Shown one piece after another: positions 54,190 through 63,192 of a DNA stretch of 64,000 bases. The translations under genes were made by a program, and so were the position numbers. Under the pieces are notes generated by a model, which did not search any database, had not been told where the DNA came from, and saw only the letters and a list, made by a program, of their open reading frames with translations. Source of the stretch: Promethearchaeota archaeon (GTDB taxonomy: Archaea > Asgardarchaeota > Lokiarchaeia > Sigyniarchaeales > SOKP01). Position 1 is the first letter of the stretch; the number at the start of each line of letters is the position of its first letter. The stretch spans positions 1 to 64,000 of the forward strand of contig JAGXNO010000013.1 in the NCBI GenBank assembly GCA_019894975.1, given 5' to 3'.

Positions 54190-54290
54190 CGCAGACAGAG
54201 GGATTCGAACCCTCGGGTGCATTCACACACTGGCTTTCAGGGAATAATTCCGTTCCAGGCCAGCGCCGTACCAGGCTAGGCAATGTCTGC
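54190..54290 (-). tRNA. tRNA-Ser(GGA) with 17-nt intron at 37/38 (54236-54252)
   Basis: Acceptor GCAGACA/TGTCTGC, anticodon stem CTGGC/GCCAG, long variable arm, GAGGG-TTCGAAT-CCCTC, discriminator G; 84 nt spliced. Confidence 0.95.
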
Positions 54291-57627: not shown

Positions 57628-58689
57628 TCATACGTATTCTATGATAGAATAATCTTTCTTTTTGAGTACACGATATTCGCGTTGAGTGAATAATTTAGTT
57701 AACTCTAGGTTCGTTAGTGTGTGTTTTGTTATTTGTCCAACTTTTATTCTTGATGGTTTTTTTACAAATGACATTAAAGGAATTAACTGATCGCTTAAAT
57801 AATTATCAACAGGAATTTCATTAGAGATATATTTAATCATTTCATCTGCAGCTAAACGACCTACTTTTTCTGAACTCATGTTTTTTTCACCTAATATTGT
57901 TCCTGTAGAAATTATTGCTCCTGTATCGGAAAGAGACCATAAAGAAAGACCTACGCCTGAACTTAATGAGTCAACATATGTAATTTTTACATCCAGATCA
58001 ATCTTTAAATTTCTTTTAAGATGTTGATATATGACCTTTTTTATCCTCTCACCAATGTTTCTATTCTTAAGGTGATTTGTGGCGATAATTTCACCTTTTA
58101 TAATATCGAGATTTCCTAATTCAATAAGATTTATGGGTTTAATTTCATGTTGAGAGGAATGAAGGGTGCATCGTACTTGTGCTCCCCCCTTCGGATAAAA
58201 GCCATGTTCCTTTATTTCAACATCAATTTTTAATCCTGAATTTCTAAATAGTTGATAGGTGACCTCTTGAAGATAATTAAGACTCGGAGCCCATTTCCCA
58301 AAAGTTCCCCCTCCTTGTATATTAATATTAATTATTTCTGAGTTTCTAAAACCTAAACATGCTATCTGTATTGGTTGTAGTAGTAATCCTATACTTCCGG
58401 CAGTATTGATGTTTACATCGATATTAGATTTAATTTCAGTATTGGGAATTAATGTTATTTCTTTTGACCCAACCTGGCATTTTGATAAGTTACTATTAGT
58501 TAATTTCGCAAGTGTTTGTAATCCTATTAAATGTTGCATTCTTAACCCTGGTTTTGGTCTATTTGCCCTTATATTTTTTATTCGAATAGGCCGTGAGAAT
58601 AAACTAGAGAATCCTGCTCCGATTCTAAGTATGGACCCTCCACCTTCCCCAAAGGAACCATCAATTTCTAATTTGTCTCCTTGAGTCAT
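57628..58689 (-). CDS. rtcA: RNA 3'-terminal phosphate cyclase
   Basis: IDGSFGEGGG, IRANRPKPGL, GFYPKGG, DQL, TKHTLTN. Confidence 0.92.
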   Translation of the reverse strand: MTQGDKLEIDGSFGEGGGSILRIGAGFSSLFSRPIRIKNIRANRPKPGLRMQHLIGLQTLAKLTNSNLSKCQVGSKEITLIPNTEIKSNIDVNINTAGSIGLLLQPIQIACLGFRNSEIININIQGGGTFGKWAPSLNYLQEVTYQLFRNSGLKIDVEIKEHGFYPKGGAQVRCTLHSSQHEIKPINLIELGNLDIIKGEIIATNHLKNRNIGERIKKVIYQHLKRNLKIDLDVKITYVDSLSSGVGLSLWSLSDTGAIISTGTILGEKNMSSEKVGRLAADEMIKYISNEIPVDNYLSDQLIPLMSFVKKPSRIKVGQITKHTLTNLELTKLFTQREYRVLKKKDYSIIEYV

Positions 58690-58699
58690 ATTTCATCAA

Positions 58700-59824
58700 T
58701 TAAGATAACGATTTTATTCGATTTATACCATCAAACTCTTCCATTAGTTTTATTACTTCTTGTGGAACTAAAGATTTCCAAGTCTTATCATCCTTAACGA
58801 TCAAGCGTCGAATATTACTAGCATTGAATTTTCGTTTAAAAATTGCATATTTTTTCCCAAGAGTAAATCCTTTTTTCAGGAATAATTCTCTAATCCAATC
58901 ACTATTAGAAAAGATAGCATTAAAATCACCGACTATGGAAACTACATGATCAACCCAATTTTTAGCATCAAAAATATCAGGAATTTCATAAATCTCATAT
59001 CTCTTAGGAGATAATTGTCTTTTTTTAAAAACTGCTTTGATGAACTCATTTCTTTCTCTGTTTGTAAAGGGATCATTGAATGTGTTTGCAAGTTGAGAGC
59101 TCCCTATTCCAATTTTTACATTATTATATGTTTTTAAAATACTTCTAAGAACATAGATGTGACCGTGATGGAGAGGTTGGAATCTCCCAATAAACAACGC
59201 TGTATTTTTACGAGAGTCTTTTTGCTTTATTTTTTCTCTGAAAAGAGAATTAATATCATAATTTAGAATATATCTCCAAATTTCTTCGCTATGATCAACT
59301 AGTTTCTCATTTTTTAATAGATTTTCTAATTCTTCTTTAGTGTAGAATTTGCTATGTTCAAAATCTAACTCCTTAGGATCTGGATTTAAGGGGGTTCTAT
59401 AATCAACTAATCCAAAGAAAATATAAGATATTTCTTTTGTACCATTGTCTTCTTCTTCACTTAATTCATAAAACCTTATTTCTTGAATCGTTTTTGATGG
59501 AATTCCAAATTCTTCCTCTAGCTCTCTCAAGGCATCCTTTTTAATGCTAATTAGATTTAGATTCTTTGCCCATAGAACATGTCCAGAAGAAGAATCTGTG
59601 AAATAACCTGGAAAGGAACTTTTATTTTTACTTCTTTTTTGAACCAAATAGAGAATTTCCCCTTCAGGTGAAATTGATATAACAAAAAATCGGGTTATGA
59701 GATGCGTAATATTTTTCTCGTGAGCTAAGCTTCTTTCCATTGGAAAAATATATTTAGAAATTTGACCTGAGTGCAAAAATTTTATATTTTCTTCTTTAAT
59801 ACAAGCCAAAATTTCTTTTTTCAT
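58700..59824 (-). CDS. Nudix (IDI1/YfcD-like) domain fused to NMN adenylyltransferase (NadM)
   Basis: QKRS..K..FPG, SGHV, RELEEEFGI; then FIGRFQPLHHGH, NDPFT..ER, ASNIR. Confidence 0.85.
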   Translation of the reverse strand: MKKEILACIKEENIKFLHSGQISKYIFPMERSLAHEKNITHLITRFFVISISPEGEILYLVQKRSKNKSSFPGYFTDSSSGHVLWAKNLNLISIKKDALRELEEEFGIPSKTIQEIRFYELSEEEDNGTKEISYIFFGLVDYRTPLNPDPKELDFEHSKFYTKEELENLLKNEKLVDHSEEIWRYILNYDINSLFREKIKQKDSRKNTALFIGRFQPLHHGHIYVLRSILKTYNNVKIGIGSSQLANTFNDPFTNRERNEFIKAVFKKRQLSPKRYEIYEIPDIFDAKNWVDHVVSIVGDFNAIFSNSDWIRELFLKKGFTLGKKYAIFKRKFNASNIRRLIVKDDKTWKSLVPQEVIKLMEEFDGINRIKSLS

Positions 59825-59839
59825 TTCAAATATCTCCTT

Positions 59840-60667
59840 CTATATTTGTACAGTTATAATTTCCCCTGATTTAAATCCTAGTTTATTAGATGCATTTCCT
59901 TGGTTAATAGAAATTTCAAGAAATCCCGTAGAACCAACAAGGAATAGTAAGGAATCAATAGGAACACCTGAAAAATGAGTATTGAAGATTCCTTTGTATT
60001 TTTCATTATTAATAATTAATGTGATTTCTGCTCCATCTTCTAATGCAATATTTAAATCTTTAATAATATTATCAACTATTTGGATTGGAGTTATCCCATT
60101 TCCGAAAGAATCTATATACTGAATTGGGCAGGTTATACTTCTTCTATCCGAATTAATTTCATATTTTACAGGATTTCTTTTTAAATTGTTAAAATTATAT
60201 TTTGGACCTAGATCAGATAAGGGAAAATCTTCATATTTGGCAATATAAGCACCTACTGGTGCCATAATATCTCTCCCGTGGAATGTAGTTGAAACAGGGT
60301 GATTGAAATATTCTTTGTTTTGAACACTTATGCATTCAGAAATTTCTGTTGCTTCGAGAAAATTTGGAAAAATACCATTATCAGGTCCAATGAAGTAGAA
60401 GTTTGATTTGGTTTTCAAAGCGATAATTTCTCTTGAGCTTCCAACTCCGGGATCAACTACAGTTATGAATATTGCTTTATCAGGAAAATATCTATATGTA
60501 GATTTTAAAATATATGATGCTTCTCCTACTGAATAAGCGGAGATAGTATGGGAAAGATCTATTATTTTTACTAAAGGATTCGTTTTTAAGATGACTGCTT
60601 TCATTACAGCTACATAATGCTGACCTCTTGGTCCAAAATCAGTTACTAACCCAATATATCTTTCCAT
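59840..60667 (-). CDS. SAM hydroxide adenosyltransferase (chlorinase/fluorinase, DUF62 family)
   Basis: TDFG, VVDPGVG, GPDNG, TFHGRD, IDSFGN. Confidence 0.92.
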   Translation of the reverse strand: MERYIGLVTDFGPRGQHYVAVMKAVILKTNPLVKIIDLSHTISAYSVGEASYILKSTYRYFPDKAIFITVVDPGVGSSREIIALKTKSNFYFIGPDNGIFPNFLEATEISECISVQNKEYFNHPVSTTFHGRDIMAPVGAYIAKYEDFPLSDLGPKYNFNNLKRNPVKYEINSDRRSITCPIQYIDSFGNGITPIQIVDNIIKDLNIALEDGAEITLIINNEKYKGIFNTHFSGVPIDSLLFLVGSTGFLEISINQGNASNKLGFKSGEIITVQI

Positions 60668-60731
60668 TTTTTTACAAGCGTAACTAAATTCTTCTTAGGA
60701 GTACTTTATATTGCTACTATATACACAAAAT

Positions 60732-61643
60732 TTATGATGGTATTTCTTTCCTATATTTCTGATCAATTTTGTAAAAATCTTCAAGAGCTTTAGATTTTAA
60801 CCTAAATTCCTCTTCTTTGTCAAATTGTACTAATTTCTTAGAAATTTCACTTGCTTTTCTGTATGAGGTATAGGCTGTATGGAAGTCTTCGTTTCTTAAG
60901 GCATAACGAGCTTCTTGAACAATCTTTTCTCTTTCTTTTGACAATTCTGGTATTTGTTGAGAAAACTCTCCCTTCTCTTTTAAGGAAGCAGCTATATCCA
61001 TTATATAGAGTTCTTCTGCTATCTCGGCTGCTCTTTTATAGCTTTTTGCAGCTTTTTCATACTCTAGAGATTTAATTGCAGATTCCGCTGTTCTATATAA
61101 ATCAGAAACTTTTGTATGTTCACCATTCTCAATTTTTCCTAAAAGGTCTTGAGCTATTTTTCTTTCTTTCTTTCCACCACTTAACATGAATTTAGTTATA
61201 TTTATAATATTATTCTTCAATGCTTCAGGTTGAAGAATATCAATTAAAGGCTCTAAATGTTCAAAATAAATATCTTTTAAGATTGTTTCAAATTCTTCCT
61301 TTGACTTACCTATAATGTTAAGGCTAGGCATCTCAAGTGCTTCAGCAGCTTCTTTAAGAGAAGATCGAAATTTTTCTGGCTCATTTTCTTCAGTTAATAA
61401 TAAACCTATAATAATTCCAGAAGCTTTTCTAGCTAATTTACCCTTTAGCTTATAGATATAAGAAAAAACTCGGTCTTCTTTTAATTTTAGCAAATTATAA
61501 TCATTTTTTGAATGATCCAGATTCAATCTAAGAAATAAATCATTCGTTATTTCAAATCTCGATTCTCCTTCTTTAAAATAATACCCCATTACTTTATAAT
61601 CTGAATCTGTTGGGAGTAATACTACAAAACAACCGTTTGGCAT
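60732..61643 (-). CDS. Hypothetical protein: alpha/beta N-terminal domain (longin-like?) plus TPR-like helical repeats
   Basis: Two similar repeats (YEKAAKSYKRAAEIAEEL, FHTAYTSYRKASEISKKL). Confidence 0.6.
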   Translation of the reverse strand: MPNGCFVVLLPTDSDYKVMGYYFKEGESRFEITNDLFLRLNLDHSKNDYNLLKLKEDRVFSYIYKLKGKLARKASGIIIGLLLTEENEPEKFRSSLKEAAEALEMPSLNIIGKSKEEFETILKDIYFEHLEPLIDILQPEALKNNIINITKFMLSGGKKERKIAQDLLGKIENGEHTKVSDLYRTAESAIKSLEYEKAAKSYKRAAEIAEELYIMDIAASLKEKGEFSQQIPELSKEREKIVQEARYALRNEDFHTAYTSYRKASEISKKLVQFDKEEEFRLKSKALEDFYKIDQKYRKEIPS

Positions 61644-61708
61644 CTTAAATCATGTACCTCTTAGTTTTTTAAATTTAAAACAAGTTCTTATAACAAAATA
61701 CTTGTAGT

Positions 61709-62131
61709 TTAGGATTGGGTACTACTAATTATTCTATTTGTTTCTTCCCTAATACTTTGGATAATATTTAACAATTGAGCAAAATAAAGATTATCAGCAA
61801 CAGTTTTTGATGCCTGCTTTATTGTTTCAATAGCTTTCTTTTCATCTTCTGTAATTACTTCAATCGATTTTTTATCCCATAACTCTTTTACTTTTGTATT
61901 AAAATCTTCAGATAATTCTTTTAAACTAATACTTGATTGAATTCTGAATTGTTTTAAAACCTCTACAATCAATCTAATATTTTCTGTCATTGAAACAGTT
62001 TGTTCAGAAAAACTTTGGCTCATTTGAGTAATTGATTGACTCATCTGGCCAATTTGGGCAATCGTCCCATCTAATGAACTCATTATTTGATTAATTTTTT
62101 GAATCATCTGATCTAATAATTGTTCTGCCAC
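61709..62131 (-). CDS. Coiled-coil hypothetical protein
   Basis: Heptad pattern; N-terminus similar to the neighbouring gene. Confidence 0.7.
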   Translation of the reverse strand: MAEQLLDQMIQKINQIMSSLDGTIAQIGQMSQSITQMSQSFSEQTVSMTENIRLIVEVLKQFRIQSSISLKELSEDFNTKVKELWDKKSIEVITEDEKKAIETIKQASKTVADNLYFAQLLNIIQSIREETNRIISSTQS

Positions 62132-62166
62132 TTTTCTATCACCTATTTGTTTTAAATAAAATTTAC

Positions 62167-62580
62167 TTATTCTACTACCTCTTCCTTATTAAGTGATTCT
62201 TTTAAAACTTTTACAGAATCGATAGCTTCTGATAATAATAAATTCACTGTATCTTGATTAAGAATTCCTTCAGAGAGATTGGAAAACTCTTCAAGTTTTT
62301 TAATTAAATTTTTAAGTGCATCTAAACCTAATCCTTCTTGTATTATTTTTAATTCCTTAGTTGTTACACTCCCAATTTCCTTCATTGCGTCAATATGTTT
62401 AGTTTGTGTAACGTTAATTTCATTAGAAAATTCTCCTAATTTCTCTGTCAAATTTGAAATTTTTTCTTCGATGTTTGTATTAAGCTGGTTAAGTGATTCG
62501 TTAAGCGTTTGTATTGAAGCGCCCAATTGTGCAATCCTTTTATAAATATTCTGAAGAAGGTCGGTTAACATCTCAGCCAT
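62167..62580 (-). CDS. Coiled-coil hypothetical protein (probable paralog of 61709-62131)
   Basis: MAEMLTDLLQNI versus MAEQLLDQMIQKI; 137 versus 140 aa. Confidence 0.7.
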   Translation of the reverse strand: MAEMLTDLLQNIYKRIAQLGASIQTLNESLNQLNTNIEEKISNLTEKLGEFSNEINVTQTKHIDAMKEIGSVTTKELKIIQEGLGLDALKNLIKKLEEFSNLSEGILNQDTVNLLLSEAIDSVKVLKESLNKEEVVE

Positions 62581-62839
62581 ACATAATCAACTTTTTTAAC
62601 TTTTAGTTTGGTAATTTACTAATGTCTCTTTTTGTTACTTCAATTATAAATATAACAGATTACATCAATAAAAAAATATTCAATAAAAAAATATTTATCT
62701 TTTTTCTTATTTAATAAGAATATAAACACAAACAAGATTAATAGCCATCGAAACGATTAATTATATAAAGGAGAAACAACACCAAATACTTTGAAAAACT
62801 GAGTTTGTACAAATAACAATAAGGGCCATTTGCTTAGCC

Positions 62840-62869
62840 AAAATTGGAAATTTATTCCCATTTCTAAAT
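62840..62869 (+). other. tRNA intron 1 (30 nt, D-loop, 17/17a)
   Basis: BHB: helix TTAG/CTAA, bulges CC|A and AT|T, intron helix AAAT/ATTT plus GGAA/TTCC. Confidence 0.85.
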
Positions 62870-62875
62870 TGGTTA

Positions 62876-62903
62876 TCAAGGTTTTTGAGTACGCTTGGCC
62901 AAC
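62876..62903 (+). other. tRNA intron 2 (28 nt, 21/22)
   Basis: BHB: helix TGGT/GCCA, bulges TA|T and AC|A, intron helix CAAG/CTTG. Confidence 0.85.
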
Positions 62904-62919
62904 AAGCGCAGGTCTTATA

Positions 62920-62972
62920 AATGACCTACAGACATACAAAAAAGTATTAACAAAGTGTCTGTAATAAGTAAA
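62920..62972 (+). other. tRNA intron 3 (53 nt, anticodon loop; register 37/38 or 38/39 ambiguous within A runs)
   Basis: Relaxed BHB (TTAT/GTAA helix in the 38/39 register); 8-bp internal stem TACAGACA/TGTCTGTA. Confidence 0.75.
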
Positions 62973-62993
62973 AACCTGAGATCCGGGGTTCAA

Positions 62994-63024
62994 GTGATGA
63001 TTGGGATTCCCTTCATCAGAACAA
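62994..63024 (+). other. tRNA intron 4 (31 nt, T-loop, 58/59)
   Basis: Canonical BHB: helix GTTC/GAAC, bulges AA|G and AA|A, intron helix TGATGA/TCATCA. Confidence 0.9.
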
Positions 63025-63039
63025 ATCCCCGATGGCCCA

Positions 63040-63061: not shown

Positions 63062-63192
63062 AGAGTCAAAAAACTTCGTGAAACATCAATTTCACGTTTT
63101 TTTATATATCTTGGAGAAATACCTCCATATGGATTAGGATATTATTTTAAGGTATTGAAGATTTAATTGTAAAAAACAAATGATATAATGAT

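What the first reader, a model, noticed from the sequence alone, without database searches (positions are those of the whole stretch)
62823..63039. Hidden tRNA gene with four introns and a 6-nt micro-exon
Seen: a 217-nt region closed by GGGCCAT/ATGGCCC resolves into five exons (17, 6, 16, 21, 15 nt) and four introns (30, 28, 53, 31 nt) at 17/17a, 21/22, the anticodon loop and 58/59. Introns 1, 2 and 4 each have a 4-bp helix with two 3-nt bulges, and their predicted cut sites independently give a canonical 75-nt cloverleaf. About 65% of the gene (142 of 217 nt) is intron. Known: multi-intron tRNAs at non-canonical positions are described mainly in Thermoproteales, with up to three introns to my knowledge. 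Inference: four introns would be exceptional, standard tRNA finders probably miss this gene, and it implies a broad-specificity splicing endonuclease. The 6-nt exon UGGUUA contributes to the BHBs of both intron 1 and intron 2, which suggests ordered splicing.
Basis: partly seen in the sequence, partly recalled or inferred. Interest (0 to 1): 0.9.

Follow-up and report, generated by a model that had tools for sequence, protein, structure and literature searches.

The report
Four-intron tRNA-Ile with self-guide intron
This is a real isoleucine tRNA gene of an Asgard archaeon cut by four introns, which is already known in this group; the new point is that its anticodon intron carries a conserved stem and 'ACA' tag placed as in pseudouridine guide RNAs, so it probably directs a chemical change of its own anticodon that stops the tRNA misreading methionine codons.

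Summary
Confirmed: 62823-63039 splices to a 75-nt tRNA-Ile(UAU) in a Lokiarchaeia (Asgard) genome. Relatives lacking introns 1, 2 or 4 show the same junctions. One correction: intron 3 lies at 38/39 (62921-62973); the mature tRNA is unchanged. Four introns are not exceptional: one is in published Asgard data, a preprint reports five, and 14 of 61 orthologues have four. Ordered splicing is unsupported.

TiaS was not found in any of 161 class genomes, so this tRNA probably reads AUA; this scan found that before on other DNA. New here: intron 3 pairs back on exon 28-32, stacks on a covarying 7-bp stem and ends in ACA 14 nt from the base facing U33 (39 of 40 unselected introns; one AUA). Other TiaS-less Asgard families keep the spacing (15 of 20 genes) with a different intron site, some with a different stem. 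This is the geometry by which Cbf5 reads H/ACA guides and tRNA U55, with U34 as target. Best reading (about 0.6): a cis element for Psi34, perhaps Psi36, made before splicing. It lacks the K-turn and 5' guide strand, so it is not a classic H/ACA RNA. No modification was measured.

The parts
62823..62839 (+). exon 1 (positions 1-17)
62840..62869 (+). intron 1, 17/17a, BHB; present in only some relatives
62870..62875 (+). exon 2, 6-nt micro-exon UGGUUA (17a-21)
62876..62903 (+). intron 2, 21/22, relaxed BHB; present in nearly all genus orthologues
62904..62920 (+). exon 3 (22-38), with the anticodon
62916..62918 (+). anticodon UAU; U34 (62916) is the predicted pseudouridine target, U36 (62918) a possible second
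   Evidence: target inferred from the 14-nt spacing
62921..62973 (+). intron 3, 38/39; kept in every Loki orthologue seen; carries the ACA element
62923..62927 (+). guide-like segment GACCU, pairs with exon 28-32 (62910-62914)
62928..62934 (+). lower stem, strand next to the ACA; pairs with 62956-62962
   Evidence: compensatory changes
62936..62938 (+). ACA box
   Evidence: 39 ACA + 1 AUA in 40 unselected introns
62956..62962 (+). lower stem, partner strand
62968..62971 (+). intron strand GUAA of the splicing helix, pairs with 33-36
62974..62993 (+). exon 4 (39-58)
62994..63024 (+). intron 4, 58/59, BHB; present in only some relatives
63025..63039 (+). exon 5 (59-73); discriminator A73, CCA not encoded; T-rich run follows

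Best explanation
The gene encodes the tRNA that reads AUA (Ile) in a lineage where TiaS is not found. All four introns are removed by the two-subunit EndA and a ligase. Introns 1, 2 and 4 are ordinary BHB introns; 1 and 4 come and go among relatives. Intron 3 has a second job. In the precursor its 5' end pairs with exon 28-32 in place of exon 39-43, putting U33-A38 in a loop. That helix stacks on a 7-bp intron stem that ends in one spacer base and ACA. This copies the T-stem + acceptor stem + CCA unit, and the lower half of an H/ACA guide, that Cbf5 measures from; U34 sits where U55 or a guided uridine would. Cbf5-Nop10-Gar1 would thus make Psi34 (possibly also Psi36) in cis. The RNA then refolds into the less stable BHB form and is spliced. 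Psi34 cannot take the Elp3-type C5 modification and would restrict reading to AUA. Shown: gene structure, conservation, covariation, spacing, enzyme genes. Inferred: Cbf5 binding, the modification, its position, the order modify-then-splice, and the decoding effect.
For: ACA at intron nt 16-18 in 39 of 40 introns not selected for it, the other AUA; ACA frequency elsewhere in those introns 8/922; flanking nt 15 and 19 vary. Lower stem: 8 of 9 pairs scored change on both sides, covariation 0.341 vs 0.182, 0/500 shuffles, slid controls under 0.1; exon:intron helix 97% paired, and positions 4 and 5 change only to wobble-compatible bases. G3 is invariant even where the BHB outer helix offers it no partner. 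The guide fold is the predicted minimum-energy fold: -15.0 vs -10.4 kcal/mol for the BHB form. The same spacing (ACA 13 nt after the G facing C32) occurs in 15 of 20 Ile(UAU) genes of other TiaS-less Asgard families found without using ACA. There the intron is at 37/38; in f7, f9, f19, f26-f28 the lower stem is made with exon 19-26 instead, with compensatory changes; in f7 the unit sits 25-32 nt further into the intron. Nine other anticodon introns of this genome lack it; 80 TiaS-positive genomes gave only chance-level matches and none of 30 loci checked was a tRNA. TiaS_FLD: 0 of 161 class genomes, 184 of 239 other Asgard genomes. Only two CAU tRNAs found here, initiator- and elongator-Met-like; AUA is 33 per 1000 codons. 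Cbf5, Nop10, a Gar1-like gene (under cut-off) and Elp3 are present. Literature: Cbf5 anchors by PUA on CCA/ACA, prefers ACA, and with Nop10-Gar1 modifies an acceptor+T half-tRNA (PMC2018633); 2-4 bp cis duplexes were proposed to load U7/U9 of sR563 into Cbf5 (PMC11077068); an ACA-dependent pocket modifies both U of an unpaired UAUG (PMC7075261); archaeal U34 Ile tRNA gets cnm5U and binds AUG (PMC3895270).
Against: No modification, binding or transcript data. No upper stem or K-turn and no conserved 5' guide strand. In family f1 the base facing U33 is U (a mismatch), so U33 could be the first unpaired U. Five of 20 genes in other families lack the box at that place (L325, L326, L328, L329, L330), so it is not universal. 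In some families ACA lies in a short loop if the intron's own hairpin forms. A TruA/Pus1-family enzyme is present and is the eukaryotic catalyst. Three DPANN Ile(UAU) introns lack the exon-pairing segment. The exon strand is invariant in f1, so that helix shows only one-sided changes. Kin sequences are not independent.
Confidence: 0.62

Rival explanations
1. The intron fold is a recognition platform for anticodon modification, but the catalyst is not Cbf5 or the target is not U34: for example the TruA/Pus1-like enzyme making Psi34/36 as in yeast, another PUA-domain enzyme, or Cbf5 acting on U33 or U36 only.
For: TruA-family gene present; yeast Pus1 makes Psi34/36 in an intron-dependent way (PMC9602550); U33 faces a U in f1; intron 2-4 could also pair with 33-35, which would place U36 at 14 nt.
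Against: ACA/AUA at a fixed 14-nt spacing is the Cbf5 PUA signature; in L311, L312 and L332 the base facing U33 is A and pairs with it, leaving U34 as the first free U.
Confidence: 0.2
2. The element only shields or delays: pairing with the anticodon arm hides U34 from Elp3 or slows splicing; no new modification is made and unmodified U34 reads AUA, as in Mycoplasma mobile.
For: The guide fold is more stable than the BHB fold; Elp3 is present; some genes lack the box.
Against: Does not explain an invariant ACA at a fixed distance in two different stem builds; shielding would end at splicing.
Confidence: 0.08
3. Intron 3 is an ordinary old BHB intron; its conserved features are shared ancestry plus splicing constraints.
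For: Intron 2 is also kept and similar across the genus; intron nt 2-5 can serve as the BHB outer helix in some relatives.
Against: ACA is kept while neighbours and the linker drift, across nine families, two intron positions and two stem builds; it plays no part in the BHB.
Confidence: 0.07
4. The locus is a pseudogene or is not spliced as predicted.
For: No RNA evidence; intron 3 has weak flanking helices; an Atabeyarchaeia Ile-TAT gene was flagged 'possible pseudo'.
Against: Single copy, conserved in 34 of 36 genus genomes, exons near-invariant, no other AUA reader found, AUA very common.
Confidence: 0.03

Closest known systems
Multi-intron tRNA genes of Asgard archaea (PMC11291895; bioRxiv 10.64898/2026.10.13.758758)
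   Same: Several BHB introns at non-canonical sites, D-arm introns missed by software, four or five per gene, two-subunit EndA.
   Different: Here a Lokiarchaeia gene, outside the three focal families; no role for any intron is proposed in the passages read.
tRNA-Ile(UAU) of Nanoarchaeum equitans, Korarchaeum cryptofilum and ARMAN archaea (PMC6000648, PMC3239211, PMC3895270)
   Same: UAU anticodon, anticodon-loop intron, and (ARMAN) no TiaS or Ile2(CAU).
   Different: Whole Asgard class plus five further families; 38/39 intron in this family; ACA element, which three DPANN introns seen here lack.
Archaeal H/ACA sRNAs, especially Sso1/sR115 guiding Psi35 of pre-tRNA-Tyr (PMC2651775, PMC11077068)
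   Same: Lower stem, ACA box, 14-nt spacing, 3' guide strand paired to the bases 5' of an anticodon uridine of a pre-tRNA.
   Different: In cis inside the intron, strand order permuted, no upper stem, K-turn or 5' guide strand; target U34.
Guide-independent Cbf5 activity on tRNA U55, half-tRNAs and sR563/sR109 (PMC2018633, PMC11077068)
   Same: About 12-bp stacked helix, one spacer base, CCA/ACA; target is the second base of the loop; short cis duplex.
   Different: Built from an intron and the anticodon arm; loop of 8 nt (4 nt in some 37/38 forms), not a T-loop.
Eukaryotic pre-tRNA-Ile(UAU), intron-dependent Psi34/Psi36 by Pus1 (PMC9602550)
   Same: Same anticodon, retained anticodon intron, same predicted product.
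   Different: Catalyst there is Pus1, not Cbf5; homology of the introns was not tested.
C/D guide in the archaeal pre-tRNA-Trp intron (own knowledge; paper not held)
   Same: An intron guides modification of position 34 of its own tRNA.
   Different: 2'-O-methylation by C/D RNP, not pseudouridylation.

Membership tests
Archaeal BHB-intron tRNA gene | Exons join to a cloverleaf tRNA | tested here: met
   ARAGORN tRNA-Ile(tat)
Archaeal BHB-intron tRNA gene | 4-bp helix with 3-nt bulges at each junction | tested here: met
   4 of 4 pairs for all four introns with intron 3 at 38/39; flanking helices weak for introns 2 and 3
Archaeal BHB-intron tRNA gene | Cleavage by EndA | not testable with these tools
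   EndA genes present
TiaS-independent tRNA-Ile(UAU) | UAU anticodon on an Ile body (A73, C4-G69, U12-A23) | tested here: met
   identity elements from own knowledge
TiaS-independent tRNA-Ile(UAU) | No TiaS gene | tested here: met
   TiaS_FLD 0/161 class genomes; TiaS_TCKD only partial (2-60 of 156) hits in 4
TiaS-independent tRNA-Ile(UAU) | No tRNA-Ile2(CAU) | tested here: inconclusive
   two CAU tRNAs found, both Met-like; genome 95% complete and several other tRNAs not recovered
TiaS-independent tRNA-Ile(UAU) | Charged with Ile, reads AUA not AUG | not testable with these tools
   needs biochemistry
Classic archaeal H/ACA guide RNA | ACA/ANA box 14-16 nt from target U | tested here: met
Classic archaeal H/ACA guide RNA | Lower stem P1 next to the box | tested here: met
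   7 bp, covarying, strand order permuted
Classic archaeal H/ACA guide RNA | 3' guide strand pairs with bases 5' of the target | tested here: met
   4-5 bp with exon 28/29-32
Classic archaeal H/ACA guide RNA | 5' guide strand pairs with bases 3' of the target | tested here: not met
   no conserved complement to U36-A38 after the stem
Classic archaeal H/ACA guide RNA | Upper stem with K-turn or K-loop | tested here: not met
   no upper stem or conserved tandem G-A in alignment A1, read by eye
Classic archaeal H/ACA guide RNA | Cbf5 binding and Psi formation | not testable with these tools
   Cbf5, Nop10, Gar1-like genes present

The most novel reading that the evidence does not exclude
TiaS-less Asgard lineages solved AUA decoding with a tRNA-Ile(UAU) whose intron is a minimal cis H/ACA-like element that makes Cbf5 write Psi34 and Psi36 (the eukaryotic Psi-A-Psi anticodon) before splicing, with splicing held back until the RNA refolds; this would be the first intron-built pseudouridylation guide for a wobble base and an archaeal counterpart of eukaryotic intron-dependent Psi-A-Psi.
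Probability: 0.35. Interest if true: 0.85.

Novelty: new variant of a known kind. Interest (0 to 1): 0.66.

Why it matters
How archaea with a U34 isoleucine tRNA avoid reading AUG as Ile is open; an engineered one misreads AUG (PMC3895270). This intron gives a precise, cheap test: three recombinant proteins and a short transcript. If right, it gives a function to a tRNA intron, explains why this intron is never lost while its neighbours come and go, adds a half-guide (stem + ACA, no K-turn) to the Cbf5 substrate rules, and shows the eukaryotic combination UAU + intron + pseudouridine in Asgard archaea by a different enzyme. The four-intron count itself matters little.

Tried and rejected
37/38 placement of intron 3: rejected. 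Nested introns or a hidden CAU anticodon using the conserved CAUA in intron 3: no BHB register found by hand, and sister families with 37/38 introns give UAU directly. C/D box or K-turn in intron 3: not seen in A1. Obligate order of introns 1 and 2: unsupported. A fifth intron in orthologues: five sites are used across the family, but none of 61 genes had more than four. Pattern searches gave chance hits except L423; BLAST hits in G044 and G049 were chance. No Ile(UAU) gene was recovered from the single-contig genomes G044, G062 and G064 or from most f19, f5 and f6 genomes; extra introns may break the patterns, so this is not absence. The five f2 genes found by model R1 and the metagenome set were selected with ACA in the query and were left out of the ACA counts. 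L326's ACA call is a chance register and was counted as a failure. Crude CAU scan was uninformative. Paper searches for an intron-encoded H/ACA guide of tRNA-Ile found none; most subscription papers are not searched.

Full report
1. Observation. The stretch 62823-63039 is intergenic between two minus-strand genes. ARAGORN and Rfam find nothing there, but the joined exons give a 75-nt tRNA-Ile with anticodon UAU. A spliced profile search built without this gene also found the locus, with four gaps but some misplaced borders; the other tRNA genes I could parse carry at most two introns. Introns 1, 2 and 4 have 4-bp central helices with the expected bulges. Relatives give natural controls: 34 of 36 same-genus genomes match, and those without intron 1, 2 or 4 show the predicted junctions.

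2. Correction. Intron 3 does not pair in the 37/38 register (0 of 75) but does at 38/39 (73 of 75), with UUAU facing GUAA, GUAG, AUAA or AUGA. It runs 62921-62973. The mature sequence is unchanged because the junction is a run of A.

3. Organism and intron count. Named records with the same gene are Promethearchaeota/Promethearchaeia, so this is a Lokiarchaeia genome. Four introns are published for Freyarchaeia tRNA-Ile2 (PMC11291895 supplement) and up to five in a 2026 preprint. Among 61 orthologues, 14 have four introns drawn from five sites. The genome has two EndA paralogues; the catalytic one is closest to the Aeropyrum subunit, as the preprint reports for most Asgard genomes. The shared micro-exon bases make the two D-loop motifs mutually exclusive in strict form, but intron 2 usually occurs without intron 1, so no order follows.

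4. Decoding role. tRNA-UAU is rare in archaea (PMC6000648). TiaS_FLD was found in none of 161 genomes of the class nor in families f9, f19 and f26-f28, but in 184 of 239 other-class Asgard genomes. Ile(UAU) genes turned up in f2, f3, f4, f7, f9, f19 and f26-f28. Ile2(CAU)-like genes were seen in TiaS-positive genomes (L366, L372). This genome showed two CAU tRNAs, both Met-like, and uses AUA at 33 per 1000 codons. Earlier notes of this scan had reached the UAU/TiaS result on other genomes.

5. The element in intron 3. Alignment A1 shows U2-G3, a segment 3-6 complementary to exon 29-32, a stem of nt 8-14, one free base, then ACA, then a variable linker. ACA is at nt 16-18 in 39 of 40 introns collected without asking for it; the last has AUA, an accepted box variant. 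The stem covaries well beyond shuffled and slid controls (kinship inflates such tests). The fold with intron 3-7 on exon 28-32 is predicted to dominate over the BHB fold. Counting back from ACA, nt 3 faces C32 and nt 2 faces U33, which puts U34 at the 14-nt position of H/ACA targets (PMC2651775; PMC7075261). The same count maps nt 3-7, 8-14, 15 and ACA onto tRNA 61-65, 66-72, 73 and CCA, with U34 as the second loop base like U55; Cbf5 anchors on that unit and prefers ACA (PMC2018633).

6. Independent builds. In f2 and f3 the intron is at 37/38, two bases shorter before the G, yet ACA keeps its distance. In f7, f9, f19 and f26-f28 nt 7-13 pair with exon 20-26 (5-8 of 8 pairs, changing together with the exon) and ACA again follows at the same count; in f7 the unit lies 25-32 nt deeper in the intron. 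Fifteen of 20 genes found without ACA in the query conform; five do not. Other anticodon introns of this genome and TiaS-positive genomes do not show it.

7. Mechanism. Shown: structure, conservation, and genes for Cbf5, Nop10, a Gar1-like protein and Elp3. Inferred: Cbf5 docks on stem + ACA and makes Psi34; the unpaired UAUA could allow Psi36 as in the ACA-dependent UAUG case; cis loading by short duplexes has been proposed in Sulfolobus. By chemistry (own knowledge) Psi uses C5 for its sugar bond, so the Elp3 route to cnm5U, which lets U34 Ile tRNA bind AUG, is closed. The precursor must then refold to be cut. Rivals: a TruA/Pus1-like catalyst or another target base; shielding only; plain ancestry; pseudogene.

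8. Comparison and verdict. It is a member of the BHB multi-intron tRNAs and, on the tests that could be run, of the TiaS-independent Ile(UAU) kind. It works like the lower half of an H/ACA guide but fails two defining features (5' guide strand, K-turn stem), so it is not filed as an H/ACA sRNA. I found no paper or scan note describing this element; the scan has notes on a different, K-turn-type self-guide in Asgard tRNA-Tyr introns. Novelty: new variant of a known kind. Interest 0.66, resting on the intron element and not on the intron count.

Noticed in passing
G000:C111:16279-16417 (-); L351, L352, L354, L361, L378, L386, L388: Elongator tRNA-Met(CAU) introns across Asgard carry a conserved GGGUC(A/G)GA-type segment antisense to their own anticodon arm; possibly a second cis guide, for example for C34 methylation.
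   Followed up: no
G000:C142:12935-13085 (-): The tRNA-Tyr intron ends in CAGCCG, antisense to its own CGGCUG arm; fits the scan's notes on a K-turn self-guide for Psi35.
   Followed up: partly
window 63077-63096: Inverted repeat CGTGAAA...TTTCACG downstream of the tRNA, with the GTGAAACAT core in 23 of 28 orthologous loci and near variants in four more, at variable distance from the tRNA but fixed before an AT-rich TATATAT run; single copy in the genome. Terminator or protein-binding site for the flanking minus-strand genes.
   Followed up: partly
L050, L106, L121, L103: Ile(UAU) tRNAs of two DPANN archaea and one unnamed record (37/38 introns with CUGA) and an intronless one in a Saccharibacteria bin share the same anticodon arm as the Loki gene; partly a product of the search pattern.
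   Followed up: no
window 62681-62730 and 62760-62772: AT-rich motif conserved upstream of orthologues and a second TATA-like run; candidate promoters of the tRNA or of the divergent gene.
   Followed up: partly
window 54190-54290 (-); G000:C44:65495-65582 (-): tRNA-Ser(GGA) with an anticodon intron in the window; tRNA-Sec just beyond it.
   Followed up: no
window 57628-62580 (-): Gene run: two ~140-aa helical proteins, a 303-aa protein, SAM hydroxide adenosyltransferase, NUDIX-cytidylyltransferase fusion, RNA 3'-phosphate cyclase.
   Followed up: no
L310: cbf5 begins about 115 nt after tRNA-Lys(UUU) on contig C90.
   Followed up: no
L005: Intron 4 is nearly identical in a different species of the genus whose other introns differ, while other relatives have unrelated T-loop introns at 59/60.
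   Followed up: no
L328: A second, unrelated Ile(UAU) gene in bin G047 (1150 contigs) lacks the element; possibly contamination.
   Followed up: no
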